64,000 bases of DNA from Alphaproteobacteria bacterium. GTDB lineage: Bacteria > Pseudomonadota > Alphaproteobacteria > SMXP01. Position numbers and translations under genes: made by a program. This document shows, one piece after another, positions 9,286 through 38,594 of this stretch (its first letter is position 1; each line of letters starts with the position of its first letter). The notes under the pieces were generated by a model, which was not told where the DNA came from, did not search any database, and saw only the letters and a program-made list of their open reading frames with translations. The stretch is taken from the NCBI GenBank assembly GCA_028285305.1, contig JANQPV010000004.1:41685-105684 (forward strand). The letters run 5' to 3'.

Positions 9286-10194
9286 CTAGCTTCCCGCGGA
9301 CAGCAACCTGCAGATTTCATCCAGCTGTTCAAGAGACTTGTAAGCAATCCGCACCGATCCGCCTTCAGAGCCCGGCTTGGAATCAATCAGCACCTTCAAG
9401 CCGATCGTGGTTGAAAGATTGTCCTCCAGGGCCAAGGTATCTGCATCCTTTTCAACCGGCACCGGCCTTGGCTTTTGGCTCTCGTCTTTGCCGCCCTTTT
9501 TGAGGTCCCGAACGAGCGCCTCGGTCTGGCGGACATTCAGACCCTCGTCCACCACCATCTTGGCAACCGCCTCCAAATTCTCCAGGCCAATGAGCGCGCG
9601 CGCATGCCCGGCCGACAACTGACCTTCAAAGAGCAGGCGCTGCAAATTTTCCGGCAGTCCCAGCAAACGCAAAAGATTGGCGATATGACTGCGGCTCTTC
9701 CCGACCACCTGCGCCAACTTTTCCTGGGTATGGTCAAACTCGTCAATCAAGGCTTGATAGGCCCGCGCCTCTTCTATCGGATTTAAATCCGACCGCTGAA
9801 CGTTTTCAATGAGAGACAGCTCAAACGTTTCTTGATCCGTCAGATTCTTGACCAAGACTGGAACCTTATGCAGGCCCGCCTTTTGCGAAGCGCGCCATCG
9901 CCGCTCGCCCGCAACGATCTGAAAGGAATCCGCCGCATCTGCCACCGGTCTTACGATGATAGGCTGCAAGACCCCCTTCTCCCGGATCGAAGACGTCAGC
10001 TCATTAATTTCCACATCGTCGAATTGACGGCGCGGCTGATAGGGATTGGGCTGCAGGAACTCAATCGGCAACTCCTGGGCGGAGCTGGGCATCTTCGGTT
10101 CTGGCGCGTCTTGGCTGTCCGGATCGAACTCCGTATCGCCGAGCAAGACGGCAAGCCCGCGCCCCAACCTTTTTTGTTTTGCTTGTTCTGCCAT
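9286..10194 (-). CDS. parB: chromosome partitioning protein ParB
   Basis: KRLGRGLAVLLG N-terminal motif, the IVAGERRWRA ParB box and an HTH region. Lies downstream of parA. Confidence 0.9.
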   Translation of the reverse strand: MAEQAKQKRLGRGLAVLLGDTEFDPDSQDAPEPKMPSSAQELPIEFLQPNPYQPRRQFDDVEINELTSSIREKGVLQPIIVRPVADAADSFQIVAGERRWRASQKAGLHKVPVLVKNLTDQETFELSLIENVQRSDLNPIEEARAYQALIDEFDHTQEKLAQVVGKSRSHIANLLRLLGLPENLQRLLFEGQLSAGHARALIGLENLEAVAKMVVDEGLNVRQTEALVRDLKKGGKDESQKPRPVPVEKDADTLALEDNLSTTIGLKVLIDSKPGSEGGSVRIAYKSLEQLDEICRLLSAGS

Positions 10195-29172: not shown

Positions 29173-29590
29173 ACTCTCCGTTCTTACGATCCGTCTAACG
29201 TTCAAGAGTTTTAGGAAACGTACGCCTCATCGGCAACTGAGCGTGCACGTGGATGGTTGTGATGGTGCGCAGATACTTGGTCGATCATGACCAATATCAG
29301 GTATCGCGCGAAATCGAAGTGGGTCTTTTGCGCGGGCCTGAGTTCGTCGGAAACGACGGGGATCAAGCTATCGTGAATGTGCGCAGAGTTTACTGGGCGA
29401 CGTTTATCGGAAGAAAATCGAAGAGCAATCGGACAGGCCTCAATTGCATATCATAACGTCCTTTATGATATACTATATTTAGCTCATACGGTGCCGCTAA
29501 TTGGATATTTTGCACGAATAACGGCGAGAACCTTGACACTACACGTATTAAGGTAAAGGCTCTCGTTTCCACTATTATGAGGAGAGATAG

Positions 29591-30001
29591 ATGTCTCAGG
29601 ATCTAAATAACTTAATAGCAGAACTCCAAGCTGACGATCAGAAATTTCAGGAATTCGTGAATCATCCTGGATTGTTCTTGCAAGGCAGGGGCATGAATGA
29701 AGAAGACGCATCTACAGCAGCAGCTTTGGCCACGAGAGCTAACAGACTTCTGACATTCACACCAACGACGTTGGCTGAGCTTTCCAATGAATTGGGAAGT
29801 GTGAATTTCGATAATCCAGGCGTCGTGTCGGCATTCACAGACAATTTTACCGATAACTATTCAGATAATGATCACTATACAGATAGTTACACGAATTCAA
29901 ATGGGCGAATGAGCGTTGATGCTTGGACGCGCCGGCTCGTCACCGATAGAGGTCTGGATATCTCAGGCATTCCTGGATCTGGATTCAGCGATCTACCATG
30001 A
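29591..30001 (+). CDS. candidate RiPP precursor peptide (leader plus Cys-free, aromatic/Asp/Asn-rich core)
   Basis: RBS GAGGAGAGATAG precedes the ATG. It is 49 bp upstream of and co-oriented with a radical-SAM/SPASM gene. The C-terminal half contains SAFTDNFTDNYSDNDHYTDSYTNSNG with repeated aromatic-X-(D/N) triplets. No Cys. Low-GC islet. Confidence 0.5.
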   Translation: MSQDLNNLIAELQADDQKFQEFVNHPGLFLQGRGMNEEDASTAAALATRANRLLTFTPTTLAELSNELGSVNFDNPGVVSAFTDNFTDNYSDNDHYTDSYTNSNGRMSVDAWTRRLVTDRGLDISGIPGSGFSDLP

Positions 30002-30049
30002 AGTCAAAGTCCTAAGCTACCTAGCCGTTCGTTCGCATCTGTTTGGAAA

Positions 30050-31474
30050 ATGCAACTAAATTTTTCATTTAGACAAATTGATAATGGTTATTTTTTAGCC
30101 AACACTATCGGTCAATGGCACTTCTTATCCAGAAAACAATTTGATGACCTAAATCGGCAGTCAGCGGGTCCGAGGCTGTTAGATGAGCTTGAGGAAAGAT
30201 ATCTCGTACTGACTGAGAAAAATAGGAAGGCTTACCTAAAAGAAAAAGCTTTGTGGGATAACAATCCGCACCAAGAACGACATCAAATCGTTATCGTCCA
30301 CCTTACACAGCGGTGCAATCTGACGTGCCAGTATTGCCATTCCGCGGCAATATCTCCCGATGCAAAAGGGAGAGACTTGAGTCCTGAGCTGGCGGAAAGA
30401 GTCTGCAATTTCGTTGCAACCATGCAGAAAGATCAAATCACAATAGCGTTCCAAGGTGGAGAGCCCGCTTTGCAGGTCGATGAAATAGAGCTCATTTGCA
30501 AGACCTTGCTGGAAGATAGGAGGAACAGGTCCAAAGAAATTCGGTTCGGTGTCACTACAAACGGCACGATCCATTCCACCCAGTTCTTACAACTAATTAG
30601 CCGATACCAAATAGCGACGACAGTATCTTTGGATGGTCCGCAGGACATACACGATTCACTCCGAAAAGATTATGATGGGGCGGGATCATTTCAAAGAGCT
30701 CTAAAATTTAAGGAATTGCTTCGCGAGCATGCTCCAGCCTGCGCAAGTGGATCTATAATGGTTCTGACTCGGGATGGAATCAGCAGGGTTCAAGAAATAA
30801 TTGATCAGTATATCGAGTTCGGTCAATCAGTACTGCGGCTGAAAGCAGTCACGAGGTTAGGAAAGGCCAAGTCTACCTGGGATCAAAGCAGCATTACATT
30901 TGAAGAATATTGGGATGCGTATAAAATCGCTCACCAATACATGATTGACCATTACGCAGAGCGAAGAAACATTACGGTAGAGCACAGTGTGCTAACTTTC
31001 TTGCGCAAACTGTTTGAAAAACGAAACGTTGGCGATGTAGATACAAAAAACCCCTGTGGTATTGTGAACGGTATCGTGAGCATTGACGTGGATGGCCGTA
31101 TATATGCCTGCCATGAAACGAAGCGCCAAAAAAAGTTCCTATTGGGAAGCGTGTCCCAAGATGCTGAATCTGTCTTAACCTCGGCGCGGGCTGTAGCAAT
31201 ACGAAGTATGACAGATCTATCAGGCGTCAGCGAGTGTAATCAATGTGCGTACTACTCTTATTGCACTCCGTGCCCTGCACATAACTTCCAAGCTACCGGG
31301 GACCCAACGATTCGTCCTTACGAAAGTTGGGAGTGCAAAAAAACGATCGCCCTCGGTGACTTGGTGCTGAGTAACTTCCAGCAGAATGCCAGCTACTACG
31401 TGGACAGCTGGAAGACGTGGAGAATGAGTCATGATTTTGCGAACCTTCTGTCGACCGACGCGACCAGAATTTAG
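30050..31474 (+). CDS. radical SAM / SPASM-domain peptide-modifying enzyme with N-terminal RRE-like extension
   Basis: CNLTCQYC (CX3CX2C) lies ~95 aa from the N-terminus, with a GGEP-like segment after it. The C-terminal SPASM cysteines are CGIVNG...YACHE and CNQCAYYSYCTPC. Confidence 0.85.
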   Translation: MQLNFSFRQIDNGYFLANTIGQWHFLSRKQFDDLNRQSAGPRLLDELEERYLVLTEKNRKAYLKEKALWDNNPHQERHQIVIVHLTQRCNLTCQYCHSAAISPDAKGRDLSPELAERVCNFVATMQKDQITIAFQGGEPALQVDEIELICKTLLEDRRNRSKEIRFGVTTNGTIHSTQFLQLISRYQIATTVSLDGPQDIHDSLRKDYDGAGSFQRALKFKELLREHAPACASGSIMVLTRDGISRVQEIIDQYIEFGQSVLRLKAVTRLGKAKSTWDQSSITFEEYWDAYKIAHQYMIDHYAERRNITVEHSVLTFLRKLFEKRNVGDVDTKNPCGIVNGIVSIDVDGRIYACHETKRQKKFLLGSVSQDAESVLTSARAVAIRSMTDLSGVSECNQCAYYSYCTPCPAHNFQATGDPTIRPYESWECKKTIALGDLVLSNFQQNASYYVDSWKTWRMSHDFANLLSTDATRI

Positions 31475-31700
31475 CTACGTTCTGGACGCGTAAATCTGGC
31501 AAAATTATTACAGCCAACAGAAGGAACTGAGATGGGGGGTTAAAGAAGCTATGGATGGGGCTTCTGCCTTTGTATCGGTCGTTGAGAAAGTTTTTGATCG
31601 CATAGTAAATGTCGGCGACAGAACTAAACGTCGTGAAGAAATTGCACGCTTGCATCAGCTGCTAAGTTAAGTCCGTATAGCGAGGACACTCAATGTCGGA

Positions 31701-32060
31701 TTGTTGGATTATGTGAAGAAAGTTTCTCTAGGAATCGAAAAATGGGCTCCCGAAAGCGAAGCAGAGATCACAGTCGAGCAGATCCAAAACTCACTTTTTG
31801 CTCTCGTCGAAATTGTTGATGAAATGGTCGATCAGGAAGATCGCGTCATCTTGTATCAAAATAATTCGTTTCAACATCTCTCGATTGTGGCTAAGGGGCG
31901 GCATGACCTTCTAAATGAACTCCGTAACGTGGCGGGACAAAACAGTGGTAGGGAATTGAAGATAGCCATAAAAAAATATGAGCAGCTTTCGCGAGAATTA
32001 GGGGAGCTAAGTTCAAAATTGGCAGAACACGGTCGGCAATTGTCGGAAAGTGTGACCTAA
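31701..32060 (+). CDS. hypothetical acidic coiled-coil protein (islet-associated)
   Basis: 119-aa ORF in the same low-GC islet. No recognisable domain. Confidence 0.35.
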   Translation: MLDYVKKVSLGIEKWAPESEAEITVEQIQNSLFALVEIVDEMVDQEDRVILYQNNSFQHLSIVAKGRHDLLNELRNVAGQNSGRELKIAIKKYEQLSRELGELSSKLAEHGRQLSESVT

Positions 32061-32213
32061 GTATACTTTATTACACTCTCCGACGAACGACAGAAAACTG
32101 CGTGTGACATAAGTCCCTTGGCATTAAGTCACACTTTGTGAAGCTAAGTCATAGACCTTTGTCACACCGTTCGCGCCGCGCGCGGACGTCAGCGAGCCTC
32201 AAATCGCACACCT

Positions 32214-36776: not shown

Positions 36777-38594
36777 TCACTCCCTTTCGAAAGCGCTGCA
36801 GACGGCGGTCATATAGCCGAGAACTTTTTCGCCGGACTGATCCTTTTGCTGAATGCAGGCGAGCGCTCGCCCGCAGAGCGTTTGGTCTGTATGACACGCC
36901 AGCCAGGAGACCGTGCCCGTTTGTTCGAAACTCAAATCGGCGCTGGCTTTGGGGGCGACGGTCTCGGCAAACTGCATGGCTTCATCGTCATAGCCCAGTT
37001 TGCGCGTGAAGTAGACGGAAACCGGAAAGTCACAAATATTGGTGAACTGTTCATCGTCGACCTCAATACAATCGTTTGAGTGGGCTCGGACATAGTCATA
37101 CTGTTTATGGCGATTGGGCGCTTCGGAAAGCATGAACTCTGCCTCCGGAGGTGTTCCCGCGCCGAGCCCATCGCCCACCGTAAAGGTCAAACGTCCCGCC
37201 AGACTATCGCTGCAATCGCAGTCTTCAAGCGCCAAGAAGACACGGACCTCGTAGGTTCCGGGCTCGCTGCGGCCATCAAAGGAGTAGATGCAATCGTTCG
37301 CGGGTTGAGTGTAGTTCTTTAGATAGTTCCAGTCTTTTTGAAATCGAACCGCCGCTCCTCGCTGGGGGTGAGCATGGAGCGGTTCCGAGATCTTCCGTAT
37401 GCCGATCCAAGGGTCTGAAGCCGGATACTCCTTCTTGTGGCATTGGACGGCCACATCGATCCCTTCGCCGACCGCATAGCTATCTTTGGCGAGCCAAATT
37501 TTGAAAGGCATCTGAATACCCGGTCCAGTCTCTGTGACCTGTTCAGGCTCTTGCACAACGCCGGTCGTTACGATTTCAAACGCCATTTGGGCAACCGGGG
37601 TGTAGTCGGTACCTTGAAACTGCCTTAGCTCATACGCGCCAACTTCCGTTCGCGGTGCAAATGTGAACGTGCATGCAGCGCCCGCCTTCGTTGCATCTTT
37701 GAAATAGAACCAATCTTCACCCTGAATGCCGTAGTTATAAGATGAGGCGCCAGCCTTGAAGAGGGCGATCCAGTTCGATCCAGCCTCGGCATCGGGTCCG
37801 CATGCGGCCGTCACGCGAATGGGTTCATTGGTGCTATAGGCGGCCTTACCTAAGGTATAGGGCTTGGCACCACCAGCTTCCGCCACGGAAAACGCGTGTC
37901 TTGCAGCGATGAAATCTCCCGAAGGCGGAATAATGCGCAACTCATAGTCGCCTGCGGTGGCGCGCCCGGCGAACTCAAAGATGCAGTCTTCCCTGTCGCG
38001 AAAATAGAGCCAATCCGCTTTATACGTTCCATAGTCGCGGGGGGCGTCGGACGGGCTAAAAACGCCGATCCAGCCATCTTCATCGTACTTCGAACAATCC
38101 GTTGTGACACGGATCTTTTCGCCGGTGACATATGTCTCTTTGTCGAAGGCAATGCCGCTTTCAGTCATAACGGAGGGCGCCGCTATGGACGTGTTTGCAT
38201 CCGAGCCGCTATCGGATGCGCTTGCGGAAACGGGCGCCGCGCTACTCGCCGTGCTGTCTCCAACGGCGAATGCCACCCTTATTTGATCATTGTATCCGGA
38301 GTCGGGAAAGTACCGCGCTTCGTATTGGCCCGGATCGTCCTGCCCATCAAAGACCAGCCGGCAGTTTTCTCCATCACTCACATACTGGTAAGTCTGATAA
38401 TTGCGCTCTCCCGCGCCTGATTTGAACAAACCGACCCAGGCACTAGAACTCTGAGGGGGACAGCTTGTCGTGACGACAATGTCCTCACCTGTCGCATAGG
38501 TTTGTTTTTCGACCGTCAGCGTCACGTCCGCCGCTGTTGCCCGCCCTGCGACCGCAAGCAGAAACAGAACTCCTGCAAGAATATGCTTTTTCAC
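36777..38594 (-). CDS. secreted protein with four ~105-aa Cys/Trp-containing tandem repeat domains and a Cys-rich C-terminal domain (function unknown)
   Basis: Signal peptide MKKHILAGVLFLLAVAGRATA. Repeats follow the pattern TY-TGE-I-VTT-C...W(I/V)G-F...Y-Y...DW-YF...C-F-F...G-YE-R. Confidence 0.6.
   Translation of the reverse strand: MKKHILAGVLFLLAVAGRATAADVTLTVEKQTYATGEDIVVTTSCPPQSSSAWVGLFKSGAGERNYQTYQYVSDGENCRLVFDGQDDPGQYEARYFPDSGYNDQIRVAFAVGDSTASSAAPVSASASDSGSDANTSIAAPSVMTESGIAFDKETYVTGEKIRVTTDCSKYDEDGWIGVFSPSDAPRDYGTYKADWLYFRDREDCIFEFAGRATAGDYELRIIPPSGDFIAARHAFSVAEAGGAKPYTLGKAAYSTNEPIRVTAACGPDAEAGSNWIALFKAGASSYNYGIQGEDWFYFKDATKAGAACTFTFAPRTEVGAYELRQFQGTDYTPVAQMAFEIVTTGVVQEPEQVTETGPGIQMPFKIWLAKDSYAVGEGIDVAVQCHKKEYPASDPWIGIRKISEPLHAHPQRGAAVRFQKDWNYLKNYTQPANDCIYSFDGRSEPGTYEVRVFLALEDCDCSDSLAGRLTFTVGDGLGAGTPPEAEFMLSEAPNRHKQYDYVRAHSNDCIEVDDEQFTNICDFPVSVYFTRKLGYDDEAMQFAETVAPKASADLSFEQTGTVSWLACHTDQTLCGRALACIQQKDQSGEKVLGYMTAVCSAFERE

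What the first reader, a model, noticed from the sequence alone, without database searches (positions are those of the whole stretch)
29591..31474. Putative RiPP locus: Cys-free aromatic/Asp/Asn-rich precursor plus radical-SAM/SPASM maturase with RRE-like N-terminus
A 136-codon ORF with a good RBS sits 49 bp upstream of a 474-aa radical-SAM enzyme. That enzyme has the CX3CX2C cluster (CNLTCQYC) and a full C-terminal SPASM cysteine set. It also has a ~95-aa N-terminal extension of the size expected for a RiPP recognition element. The putative core of the small ORF (SAFTDNFTDNYSDNDHYTDSYTNSNG...GSGFSDLP) has no cysteine, so thioether (sacti-/ranthipeptide) chemistry is excluded. Instead it repeats aromatic-X-(Asp/Asn) triplets (FTD, FTD, YSD, YTD, YTN, FSD). 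That is the substrate pattern of 3-residue cyclophane-forming (triceptide-type) radical SAM enzymes. No protease, transporter or immunity gene is adjacent, so this would be a minimal two-gene cassette. The product could be an uncharacterised class.
Basis: partly seen in the sequence, partly recalled or inferred. Interest (0 to 1): 0.85.

Follow-up and report, generated by a model that had tools for sequence, protein, structure and literature searches.

The report
Rare radical-SAM enzyme plus repeat-peptide cassette
A rare, horizontally acquired two-gene unit pairs a radical-SAM/SPASM enzyme (closest to the phage-defence maturase HxsB) with a cysteine-free small protein carrying aromatic-x-Asp/Asn repeats; it is very probably an uncharacterised peptide-crosslinking pair that could give a simple experimental handle on HxsB-type chemistry.

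Summary
A 136-aa Cys-free ORF (29591-30001) lies 48 nt upstream of a 474-aa radical-SAM/SPASM enzyme (30050-31474), inside a ~2.9 kb low-GC island.

The pairing is conserved. 13 of 14 distinct homologue loci carry a homologous 110-140 aa partner next to the enzyme, once downstream. Its core repeats [F/Y/W/H]-x-[D/N]-x two to six times.

The enzyme family is tiny: about 22 clusters among 5.8 billion. Its best match in every member is HxsB, full length but below cutoff, at about 25% identity. It is not an HXS system: there is no HxsC, HxsD or HxsA, and the enzyme keeps all seven SPASM cysteines whereas the two HxsB sequences compared lack three.

The most likely mechanism is inferred, not shown. 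The N-terminal β3α3 domain binds the helical leader, and the enzyme crosslinks aromatic rings to Asp/Asn Cβ, as in triceptides. Tyr-x-Asp (YxdB) and Trp/Phe-x-Asn/Asp (OscB, XncB) are precedents.

The enzyme reaches no curated cyclophane-synthase family cutoff. Comparison with YxdB was not possible. The biological role is unknown; an HXS-like effector role is not excluded.

Verdict: a real, uncharacterised new variant of a known kind, of moderate interest.

The parts
29200..32100 (.). Low-GC island (GC 0.43-0.48 against 0.55-0.63 in the flanks) that holds the cassette. It sits between an alpha/beta-hydrolase gene and a LysR gene.
   Evidence: Composition profile. Cassette GC is 0.457 against 0.571 and 0.574 in the flanks. 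No tRNA is present in the window and no convincing flanking direct repeats were found.
29580..29584 (+). Shine-Dalgarno-like AGGAG, 6 nt upstream of the small ORF's ATG.
   Evidence: Read directly from the sequence.
29591..29827 (+). Leader region of the small protein (aa 1-79). It is predicted helical and contains the conserved F-T-P-x-T-L-x-x-L motif (aa 56-64), which is the likely enzyme-recognition segment (inferred).
   Evidence: AF2 predicts helices at 3-14, 16-24, 26-30, 37-54 and 58-67, with pLDDT 75-80 up to about residue 55. F56, T57, P58, T60, L61 and L64 are invariant in the 5-sequence alignment.
29828..29905 (+). Core (aa 80-105): SAFTDNFTDNYSDNDHYTDSYTNSNG. It holds five aromatic-x-Asp/Asn motifs, mostly at 4-residue spacing, and is the predicted site of modification.
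   Evidence: The region is disordered or low-confidence in the AF2 model. The equivalent cores of 13 partner proteins hold 62 motifs: F 29, Y 26, H 4, W 3 at position 1 and D 50, N 12 at position 3; 31 of 49 spacings equal 4.
29906..30001 (+). C-terminal tail (aa 106-136, including the W-T-x-x-L segment and a sixth FSD motif) plus the stop codon. It is conserved only in the closest relatives and absent in others, so it is probably dispensable.
   Evidence: Alignments. The partners in L089 and L005 end directly after the core.
30050..30280 (+). N-terminal domain of the enzyme (aa 1-77) with beta-beta-beta-alpha-alpha-alpha order (RRE-like topology). It is homologous to the N-terminus of HxsB.
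   Evidence: AF2 model with pLDDT 90-96 over residues 1-70. The HxsB HMM aligns from residue 3 and the BLASTP alignment to Klebsiella HxsB also starts at residue 3. There is no Pfam or PDB sequence match.
30281..31054 (+). Radical-SAM core (aa 78-335), with the CxxxCxxC cluster motif CNLTCQYC at aa 89-96 (nt 30314-30337).
   Evidence: Pfam Radical_SAM, E = 3.9e-17. C89, C93 and C96 are invariant.
31055..31474 (+). SPASM domain and C-terminal helices. Seven invariant Cys are present (C336, C354, C396, C399, C405, C408, C429), enough for two auxiliary Fe-S clusters.
   Evidence: Pfam SPASM above cutoff. Invariant columns. Comparison with two HxsB sequences, which lack the equivalents of C336, C354 and C408.

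Best explanation
The locus is a self-contained, horizontally mobile two-gene peptide-maturation cassette.

The 136-aa product has three parts: a helical leader (about aa 1-79), a disordered core of five aromatic-x-Asp/Asn motifs, and an optional tail. It is the substrate of the adjacent radical-SAM/SPASM enzyme.

The proposed mechanism is as follows.
1. The enzyme's N-terminal beta3-alpha3 domain, shared with HxsB, docks the leader, probably at the conserved FTPxTLxxL segment.
2. The CxxxCxxC cluster cleaves SAM to give a 5'-deoxyadenosyl radical.
3. That radical abstracts a hydrogen from the Asp/Asn beta-carbon.
4. The carbon radical adds to the aromatic ring two residues upstream.
5. The two auxiliary SPASM clusters take up the electron.

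The result would be one three-residue cyclophane (-2 Da) per motif, so two to six rings per peptide across the family.

Shown here: both genes are real; the pairing and the repeat motif are conserved; the Fe-S ligand sets are intact; the enzyme is a sister family to HxsB; the cassette is compositionally foreign.

Inferred: that the small protein is the substrate; that the domain acts as an RRE; the specific C-C crosslink chemistry.

The biological role of the product is unknown.
For: Pairing:
- A homologous partner ORF lies directly beside the enzyme in 13 of 14 distinct loci. It is often overlapping or less than 100 nt away. In L007/L008 it is downstream. An HMM of the partners recovers all of them at E = 1e-28 to 1e-41.
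- The flanking genes differ in every locus, so the conserved unit is the pair.

Substrate-like features:
- The core motif is conserved while the rest drifts. There are 62 motifs, with D/N at position 3 and F/Y/W/H at position 1, a dominant spacing of 4, and copy number varying from 2 to 6.
- The core is disordered and the leader helical.
- No partner contains Cys.

Enzyme:
- Radical_SAM plus SPASM domains, with three plus seven invariant Cys.
- Confident model, pLDDT 88.
- The closest solved structures are peptide maturases: CteB, TigE and SuiB (which carry an N-terminal RRE domain, from my own knowledge of those published structures; they align over about 474 columns) and the triceptide synthase ChlB.

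Chemical precedent:
- YxdB links Tyr-C3 to Asp-Cbeta. OscB links Trp-C7 to Asn/Asp-Cbeta. OscB/XncB link Phe-C4 to Asn-Cbeta (PMC11002830). The omega1-X2-X3 definition is in PMC11499958.
- In L120 a family member sits in an operon with Fe/2OG-type oxygenases. In triceptide clusters YhhC hydroxylates Asp alongside YhhB (PMC12186529).
Against:
- The enzyme is below cutoff for every curated cyclophane-synthase family (71-98 bits against 310-445) and is much closer to HxsB (277 bits).
- HxsB's own reaction is undefined. The only modification mapped in HXS is +8 Da, not -2 Da (PMC13128918).
- The N-terminal domain has no sequence similarity to PqqD or other RRE proteins.
- With period-4 spacing, Asp is equally placed two residues before the next aromatic residue, so the crosslink direction is not determined.
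- No protease or exporter is adjacent, which is unusual for a secreted natural product.
- One family member (L120/L121) lacks a recognisable partner.
Confidence: 0.55

Rival explanations
1. HXS-like effector maturation. The 136-aa protein is not trimmed to a small natural product. It is matured by the HxsB-like enzyme into a protein-sized effector, possibly for anti-phage or other conflict functions. The chemistry may match whatever HxsB does in HXS, rather than simple cyclophane formation.
For: - HxsB is the best and only full-length family match for all 19 members.
- HXS is an experimentally shown defence system in which radical-SAM enzymes mature a repeat-bearing protein (PMC13128918).
- HXS variants also place a small repeat peptide directly upstream of hxsB (L117 and L118).
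- The cassette lies in a low-GC island here and is AT-richer than its flanks in most loci.
- One homologue abuts a phage portal-like gene. Another abuts resolvase, AlpA, ArdC and SLFN genes.
- No protease or exporter is encoded nearby.
- The partner is 110-140 aa with a structured N-terminal region.
Against: - HxsC, HxsD and HxsA are absent from the whole window.
- The partner has no signal peptide, no peptidoglycan-binding domain and no similarity to HxsA.
- It is acidic (pI 4.2, net charge -12), so the DNA-binding mechanism proposed for HxsA cannot apply.
- Neither the cassette nor its neighbours hit any PADLOC defence model, apart from a generic radical-SAM match.
- The motif scan found no hit in viral contigs.
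- Most flanks are housekeeping genes.
Confidence: 0.2
2. The substrate is the same but the radical chemistry differs. The enzyme might install aromatic-O-C ether links, make Asp/Asn-centred changes (epimerisation, dehydrogenation, aminomalonate-type oxidation), or form longer-range crosslinks instead of three-residue cyclophanes.
For: - SPASM enzymes of similar fold catalyse C-O, C-N and C-C links (PMC11499958).
- Radical-SAM cyclophane synthases can overoxidise side chains to aminomalonate as a shunt (PMC12186529).
- DynA (121 bits) and PapB (166 bits) score higher than any 3-CyFE model.
- The HXS modification is +8 Da, an unexplained non-cyclophane mass.
Against: - The strict i/i+2 relation between aromatic and Asp/Asn residues, kept in 62 motifs, is the signature of three-residue cyclophane substrates.
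- PapB-type thioether chemistry is impossible without Cys.
Confidence: 0.15
3. The small ORF is an accessory or chaperone partner (like HxsD for HxsC) rather than the substrate. The enzyme would then modify something encoded elsewhere.
For: - In HXS a ~90-aa protein, HxsD, binds a radical-SAM partner.
- The L120/L121 enzyme works without a recognisable partner homologue.
- The partner's N-terminal half is a folded helical unit.
Against: - The most conserved and most unusual feature of the partner is a disordered, copy-number-variable repeat array. That is typical of a core peptide, not of a chaperone.
- It has no similarity to HxsD.
- The enzyme already carries its own N-terminal recognition-type domain.
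Confidence: 0.05

Closest known systems
HxsB, the radical-SAM maturase of the His-Xaa-Ser (HXS) anti-phage system (TIGR03978; PMC13128918)
   Same: - Best full-length HMM match: 277 bits over residues 3-457, including the N-terminal domain. This holds for all 19 family members.
- It is encoded next to a protein with short aromatic-x-polar repeats (His-x-Ser).
- Some HXS variants place a small repeat peptide directly upstream of hxsB.
   Different: - Only about 25% identity and below the 370-bit cutoff.
- The window family keeps seven SPASM Cys, whereas the two HxsB sequences compared (Klebsiella and Methylobacter) lack the equivalents of C336, C354 and C408.
- No HxsC, HxsD or HxsA is present.
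- The partner is acidic, cytoplasmic-looking and Cys-free. Its repeats are F/Y-x-D/N at period 4, not secreted basic H-x-S repeats at period 3.
Triceptide synthases (3-CyFEs: YxdB, OscB/GrrM, XncB, YhhB, ChlB, HtkB) and their omega1-X2-X3 precursors
   Same: - The precursor carries repeated aromatic-X-(Asp/Asn) motifs. Tyr-x-Asp, Trp-x-Asn/Asp and Phe-x-Asn are demonstrated substrates.
- The enzyme is a SPASM radical-SAM protein.
- ChlB is among the closest solved structures (TM 0.78 normalised to the target).
- Fe/2OG oxygenases are associated in one locus, as with YhhB/YhhC.
   Different: - The enzyme is far below the cutoff of every curated 3-CyFE model: YhhB 97.6/445, AmcB 93.5/425, GrrM-OscB 79/310, FxsB 71/370.
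- The leader is long (about 80 aa) and helical, with no detectable homologues outside this family.
- The relationship to YxdB itself could not be tested.
CteB / SCIFF-type and PapB-type thioether maturases (RRE + radical SAM + SPASM)
   Same: - CteB is the best solved-structure match by sequence (E = 2e-36) and by fold, aligned over all 474 columns including the N-terminal domain.
- PapB is the second-best NCBIfam hit, at 166 bits.
   Different: - These enzymes make Cys thioethers, and no partner protein here contains Cys.
- Scores are far below their cutoffs of 340-425 bits.
Anaerobic sulfatase-maturating enzyme (anSME)
   Same: Same core and SPASM fold (TM 0.80-0.84 normalised to the target).
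   Different: - The TIGR03942 score is 100 against a cutoff of 349.
- anSME lacks the N-terminal domain; its alignments cover only about 390 columns.
- No sulfatase is adjacent, while a conserved peptide partner is present.

Membership tests
HXS anti-phage system (HxsA/B/C/D) | Enzyme reaches the HxsB equivalog cutoff (TIGR03978, 370 bits) | tested here: not met
   277.5 bits for the window enzyme. The best E-value of any of the 19 members is 2.2e-90, and the S. meliloti member is named only 'radical SAM/SPASM domain-containing protein' by NCBI. Identity to true HxsB proteins is about 25%.
HXS anti-phage system (HxsA/B/C/D) | Second radical-SAM enzyme HxsC and small protein HxsD encoded alongside (more than 99.8% of systems have all four genes) | tested here: not met
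   tblastn of Klebsiella HxsC and HxsD against the whole 64-kb window gave only chance hits (E >= 0.048). The gene-content rule is from PMC13128918.
HXS anti-phage system (HxsA/B/C/D) | Effector HxsA with signal peptide, His-x-Ser repeats and a peptidoglycan-binding domain | tested here: not met
   Profile comparison of the partner alignment with HxsA gave probability 0.1%. The partner has no hydrophobic N-terminus and no HxS run.
Radical-SAM/SPASM peptide maturase with co-encoded precursor (rSAM-RiPP type) | CxxxCxxC radical-SAM cluster motif | tested here: met
   C89, C93 and C96 are invariant in 19 sequences. Pfam Radical_SAM scores 63.4 bits against a cutoff of 29.5.
Radical-SAM/SPASM peptide maturase with co-encoded precursor (rSAM-RiPP type) | Seven-Cys SPASM motif for two auxiliary clusters | tested here: met
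   The pattern C336-x12-G-x4-C354 ... C396-x2-C399-x5-C405-x2-C408 ... C429 is invariant. Pfam SPASM scores 23.8 bits against a cutoff of 21.5.
Radical-SAM/SPASM peptide maturase with co-encoded precursor (rSAM-RiPP type) | Conserved adjacent small ORF with leader and core organisation | tested here: met
   13 of 14 loci have it. The AF2 model shows a helical leader and a disordered core.
Radical-SAM/SPASM peptide maturase with co-encoded precursor (rSAM-RiPP type) | RiPP recognition element (PqqD-like winged helix) that binds the leader | tested here: inconclusive
   The predicted beta3-alpha3 order is high-confidence. Full-length structural alignments are obtained to CteB, TigE and SuiB, which carry an N-terminal RRE domain (from my own knowledge of those published structures), whereas alignments to anSME cover only about 390 columns. 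There is no Pfam PqqD match and no PDB sequence match, even at E <= 10. Binding was not tested.
[quoted passage not shown] | Precursor with omega1-X2-X3 motifs (aromatic at position 1) | tested here: met
   Five to six motifs in the window protein and 62 in 13 cores. The X3 residue is Asp or Asn, as in YxdB and OscB substrates.
[quoted passage not shown] | Enzyme belongs to a characterised 3-CyFE sequence family | tested here: not met
   YhhB 97.6/445, AmcB 93.5/425, GrrM-OscB 79/310, FxsB 71/370 bits. ChlB (PDB 9gm3) scores only 90.7 bits, over the radical-SAM core alone.
[quoted passage not shown] | Similarity to YxdB (WP_226048651.1), the Tyr-x-Asp cyclophane synthase, and of the partner to YxdA | not tested
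The defining paper (JACS 2022, doi 10.1021/jacs.2c00521) is not held, and no supplement text is held for PMC11499958.
[quoted passage not shown] | Aromatic-C to Cbeta crosslink (-2 Da per motif, cyclophane NMR signature) | not testable with these tools
   This requires co-expression, HR-MS/MS and NMR.
Anaerobic sulfatase-maturating enzymes | Reaches the TIGR03942 cutoff and is associated with a sulfatase | tested here: not met
   100.1 bits against a cutoff of 349. No sulfatase is present in the flanks.
Peptide-derived cofactor maturases (PqqE, MftC, QhpD) | Reaches the family cutoff and is accompanied by the rest of the pathway genes | tested here: not met
   MftC scores 69.3/265 and QhpD 104.9/453. 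PqqE is a distant structural hit (E = 3e-8). No pathway genes are adjacent.

The most novel reading that the evidence does not exclude
The cassette is a minimal, single-enzyme relative of the HXS defence system. A horizontally mobile HxsB-like radical-SAM enzyme would mature an acidic, cytoplasmic aromatic-x-Asp repeat protein into an effector used in phage defence or another inter-genome conflict. The crosslink or modification type could be one not yet described for the HxsB clade. If so, the HXS principle of a radical-SAM-matured repeat effector would extend beyond basic, periplasmic HxS proteins.
Probability: 0.15. Interest if true: 0.8.

Novelty: new variant of a known kind. Interest (0 to 1): 0.55.

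Why it matters
- Neither the enzyme clade nor the partner family is covered by any curated model or by any paper I could find.
- The family is very rare: about 22 enzyme clusters in 5.8 billion, and 5 partner clusters in 1.84 billion representatives.
- It is the closest known relative of HxsB. The chemistry of HxsB is explicitly unresolved in the 2026 HXS study, because the four-component system could not be reconstituted.
- A single-enzyme system with a small Cys-free substrate that shows no signal peptide or hydrophobic segment could be a far simpler model for what the HxsB clade does. It could show whether HxS and aromatic-x-Asp repeats are cyclophane substrates.
- If the product carries up to five or six Phe/Tyr-Asp cyclophanes in a row, it would also be an unusually dense polycyclic peptide scaffold.

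Tried and rejected
- Joint structure model of partner plus enzyme. The in-frame DNA reference was rejected because of the stop codon. There is therefore no docking evidence.
- Sequence-level RRE test. The N-terminal domains of four members against Pfam at E <= 10, and a 15-sequence N-terminal profile against all PDB chains at E <= 10, both returned nothing.
- AlphaFold-database fold search. The library was unavailable.
- Scans for more members:
  - Metagenome scan with the back-translated HLTQRCNLxC motif: 25 hits, of which 3 are true members.
  - Viral contigs: 0 hits.
  - Plasmids (tblastn): only bona fide HxsB proteins at 24-27% identity.
- PADLOC and PHROGs scans of the cassette and variable neighbours. 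No defence model matched, and the only phage match was the portal/adaptor fragment in L002.
- Source record of the window enzyme and context of the S. meliloti homologue: not on record.
- Island boundaries. No tRNA is present and no convincing flanking direct repeats were found. The promoter and terminator scans were not above shuffle expectation.
- Considered and rejected:
  - Sactipeptide or ranthipeptide chemistry, because there is no Cys.
  - anSME, PqqE, MftC and QhpD membership, because scores are far below cutoff and pathway genes are absent.
  - A chance ORF, because the protein is conserved at protein level across loci.
Full report
**1. What is in the sequence**

The two ORFs exist as described.

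- Small ORF: 29591-30001 (+) encodes 136 aa. It is preceded by AGGAG, 6 nt upstream of the ATG.
- Enzyme: 48 nt downstream, and in the same reading frame, 30050-31474 (+) encodes a 474-aa protein. It scores above cutoff for Pfam Radical_SAM and SPASM.
- Composition: both genes lie in a ~2.9 kb stretch of 43-48% GC (about 29200-32100). The surrounding genes are 55-63% GC and encode ordinary metabolic proteins: acyl-CoA dehydrogenases, an M19 dipeptidase, a GNAT, an alpha/beta hydrolase, and LysR and TetR regulators.
- Integration signals: the window has no tRNA, and the island has no convincing flanking repeat.
- Small protein: it has no cysteine, pI 4.2 and net charge -12. Aromatic-x-Asp/Asn triplets sit at residues 82, 86, 90, 96, 100 and 132.
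- Chance: composition-preserving shuffles reach the observed motif count or period-4 chain in only 17-19 of 20,000 trials.

**2. The enzyme**

- Nearest family. Against NCBIfam the best hit is HxsB (TIGR03978): 277.5 bits over residues 3-457 of the protein and positions 2-465 of 466 in the model, below the 370-bit cutoff. The next hits are PapB (166 bits), DynA (121), anSME (100), and the cyclophane synthases YhhB (98), AmcB (94), GrrM/OscB (79) and FxsB (71). All are far below their cutoffs. The same ranking holds for all 19 family members.
- Family size. The first search found about 20 clusters at 37-52% identity, then a drop to 26%. A profile search found 22 clusters at E <= 1e-40 among 5.8 billion. 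The one named member, from Sinorhizobium meliloti, is annotated only as 'radical SAM/SPASM domain-containing protein'.
- Cysteines. C89, C93 and C96, and seven SPASM cysteines, are invariant.
- Relation to HxsB. True HxsB proteins from plasmids are 24-27% identical. The two HxsB sequences aligned, from Klebsiella and Methylobacter, lack the equivalents of C336, C354 and C408. This is therefore a sister family with a complete SPASM domain.
- Structure. An AlphaFold model built from the family alignment is confident (pLDDT 88, pTM 0.86). Residues 1-76 fold as three strands followed by three helices.
- Structural neighbours. Foldseek places CteB first, aligned over all 474 columns. anSME, the triceptide synthase ChlB, TigE and SuiB follow. 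CteB is also the best sequence-level PDB hit.
- RRE question. The N-terminal domain alone has no Pfam or PDB sequence match, even at E <= 10. 'RRE-like' therefore rests on topology, and on its homology to the HxsB N-terminus.

**3. The partner protein**

- Homologues. A word-seeded search found none. An exhaustive phmmer search of 1.84 billion representatives found five clusters.
- Genomic context is decisive. A homologous 110-140 aa ORF lies directly beside the enzyme gene in:
  - L001, L002/L003, L004, L005 (truncated by the contig end) and L006;
  - L009 (Yoonia), L089, L090, L091, L097 and L104;
  - L007/L008, where it lies downstream and overlaps the enzyme's end.
  
- HMM check. An HMM of the 12 full partners recovers each at E = 1e-28 to 1e-41, and the L005 fragment at 6e-4.
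- Flanks. The flanking genes differ in every locus: ribosomal protein S2 and EF-Ts, SusC/SusD and ECF sigma/FecR, an M24 peptidase, ALAD, and a phage portal fragment. The pair is therefore the conserved unit.
- Composition. The cassette is AT-richer than its flanks in most loci, by 25 points in L002.
- Core motif. In 13 cores there are 62 motifs. Position 1 is F 29, Y 26, H 4, W 3. Position 2 is mostly Thr or Ser. Position 3 is D 50, N 12. The spacing is 4 residues in 31 of 49 cases, and copy number runs from 2 to 6.
- Tail. The C-terminal tail is present only in some partners. Two proteins end right after the core.
- Structure. AlphaFold predicts a helical N-terminal region (helices to residue 67, pLDDT 75-80 up to about residue 55) and a low-confidence, unstructured core. 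F-T-P-x-T-L-x-x-L is invariant among the closest relatives.
- Exception. L120/L121 has no partner homologue within 8 kb. There the enzyme closes an operon of a solute symporter, two JmjC-type oxygenases, a 67-aa DUF397 protein and a PhyH dioxygenase. That operon sits next to resolvase, AlpA, ArdC and SLFN genes. The only motif hit in that locus is a 61-aa ORF overlapping the enzyme's stop codon (WHDSFADF). It may be a divergent partner, but I did not count it.

**4. How it most likely works**

The data fit an enzyme/substrate pair of the radical-SAM RiPP type.

- The enzyme has an appended recognition-type domain and two auxiliary clusters.
- The substrate has a leader, a disordered repeat core of variable copy number, and no cysteine.
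- The fixed i/i+2 relation between an aromatic residue and Asp/Asn is the defining substrate pattern of three-residue cyclophane-forming enzymes (PMC11499958).
- The specific combinations have precedent: Tyr-C3 to Asp-Cbeta (YxdB), Trp-C7 to Asn/Asp-Cbeta (OscB), and Phe-C4 to Asn-Cbeta (XncB/OscB) (PMC11002830).
- The Fe/2OG-type oxygenases in L120 echo YhhC, which hydroxylates Asp in a triceptide pathway (PMC12186529).

I therefore take serial aromatic-to-Cbeta crosslinking as the most likely reaction. This is inference; nothing here shows the chemistry. With period-4 spacing, the Asp is also two residues upstream of the next aromatic residue, so the direction of the link is open.

**5. Relation to HXS**

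The 2026 study shows that HxsB and HxsC, together with HxsD, mature the secreted, peptidoglycan-anchored HxS-repeat protein HxsA. That protein blocks phage DNA entry. A +8 Da change was mapped to an SHRSS motif. The chemistry, and the individual role of HxsB, remain unresolved.

- The window has no HxsC, HxsD or HxsA.
- The partner has no similarity to HxsA.
- The partner is acidic and has no signal peptide, so the electrostatic DNA-binding model cannot be transferred.
- The cassette is therefore not an HXS system.
- An HXS-like logic remains possible, meaning an enzyme-matured repeat protein acting as an effector. The evidence for it is weak: the foreign composition, the lack of a protease or exporter, and the mobile-element or phage neighbours in two loci.
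- No PADLOC model matches.
- The motif scan found no hit in viral contigs.

**6. Novelty and verdict**

I found no paper or curated model that covers this enzyme clade or its partner. The one check I could not make is a direct comparison with YxdB/YxdA.

The likely chemistry is known. The enzyme lineage, the leader family and the two-gene HxsB-like architecture are new. I therefore rate it a new variant of a known kind, with interest 0.55.

Its main value is as a simple, single-enzyme entry point to the unresolved chemistry of the HxsB clade, and as a possible source of densely polycyclic Phe/Tyr-Asp peptides.

Noticed in passing
window 31551-31670 and 31701-32060 (+): Two ORFs (39 aa and 119 aa) downstream of the enzyme lie in the same reading frame, separated by a single TAA, inside the same low-GC island. 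This may be a ~170-aa gene broken by a nonsense codon, or a third island gene. There are no Pfam, NCBIfam, PADLOC or PHROGs hits and no plasmid DNA match. Other loci have no equivalent.
   Followed up: partly
window 29443-29476: An AT-rich inverted repeat (14-nt arms, 6-nt spacer: ATTGCATATCATAA / TTATGATATACTAT) lies about 115-150 nt upstream of the small ORF. It is a possible operator or promoter element for the cassette.
   Followed up: no
L120 3479-9601 (also L121): A family member (P0038, 40% identical) has no recognisable partner. It ends an operon of an SSF symporter, two JmjC-type oxygenases, a 67-aa DUF397 protein and a PhyH dioxygenase, next to resolvase, AlpA, a RuvB-like AAA protein, ArdC and SLFN_AlbA_2 genes. 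A 61-aa ORF (9416-9601) overlapping the enzyme's stop codon contains WHDSFADF.
   Followed up: partly
L117 3298-7268 (Methylobacter plasmid) and L118 3289-6570 (Cupriavidus plasmid): These are non-canonical HXS loci. A 90-102 aa secreted peptide ending in HxS repeats (for example HYSHRSHSSHSSHSSHVSSRY) lies upstream of hxsB-hxsC. In L117 a secreted thermonuclease-family gene occupies the position where hxsA normally lies.
   Followed up: partly
L119 3492-4877 and L117 3902-5371 (HxsB): The two HxsB sequences compared have Ser/Ala at the positions of SPASM Cys C336 and C354 and lack the equivalent of C408. They keep only four of the seven C-terminal cysteines, so HxsB may bind a single auxiliary cluster.
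   Followed up: partly
L002 1-4073 (= L107; L003 similar): The closest homologue cassette (39% GC) lies convergent to 64%-GC genes that end in a phage portal/head-tail adaptor fragment (PF12236, phrog_332). The cassette is compositionally foreign even to that element.
   Followed up: partly
L009 7091-10756 (-), Yoonia sediminilitoris: A 1221-aa ORF convergent with the cassette has no Pfam, PADLOC or PHROGs match at all. Just upstream of the cassette is a 120-aa Ser/Thr-rich protein with a weak Ig-like (FixG_C) hit.
   Followed up: no
window 36777-38594 (-): A 605-aa protein with an N-terminal signal-like segment and several internally similar ~120-aa units (recurring '...Y..GE.I.V...C...' pattern). 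Its only Pfam hit is a weak SKICH-domain match. This is an uncharacterised secreted repeat protein.
   Followed up: no
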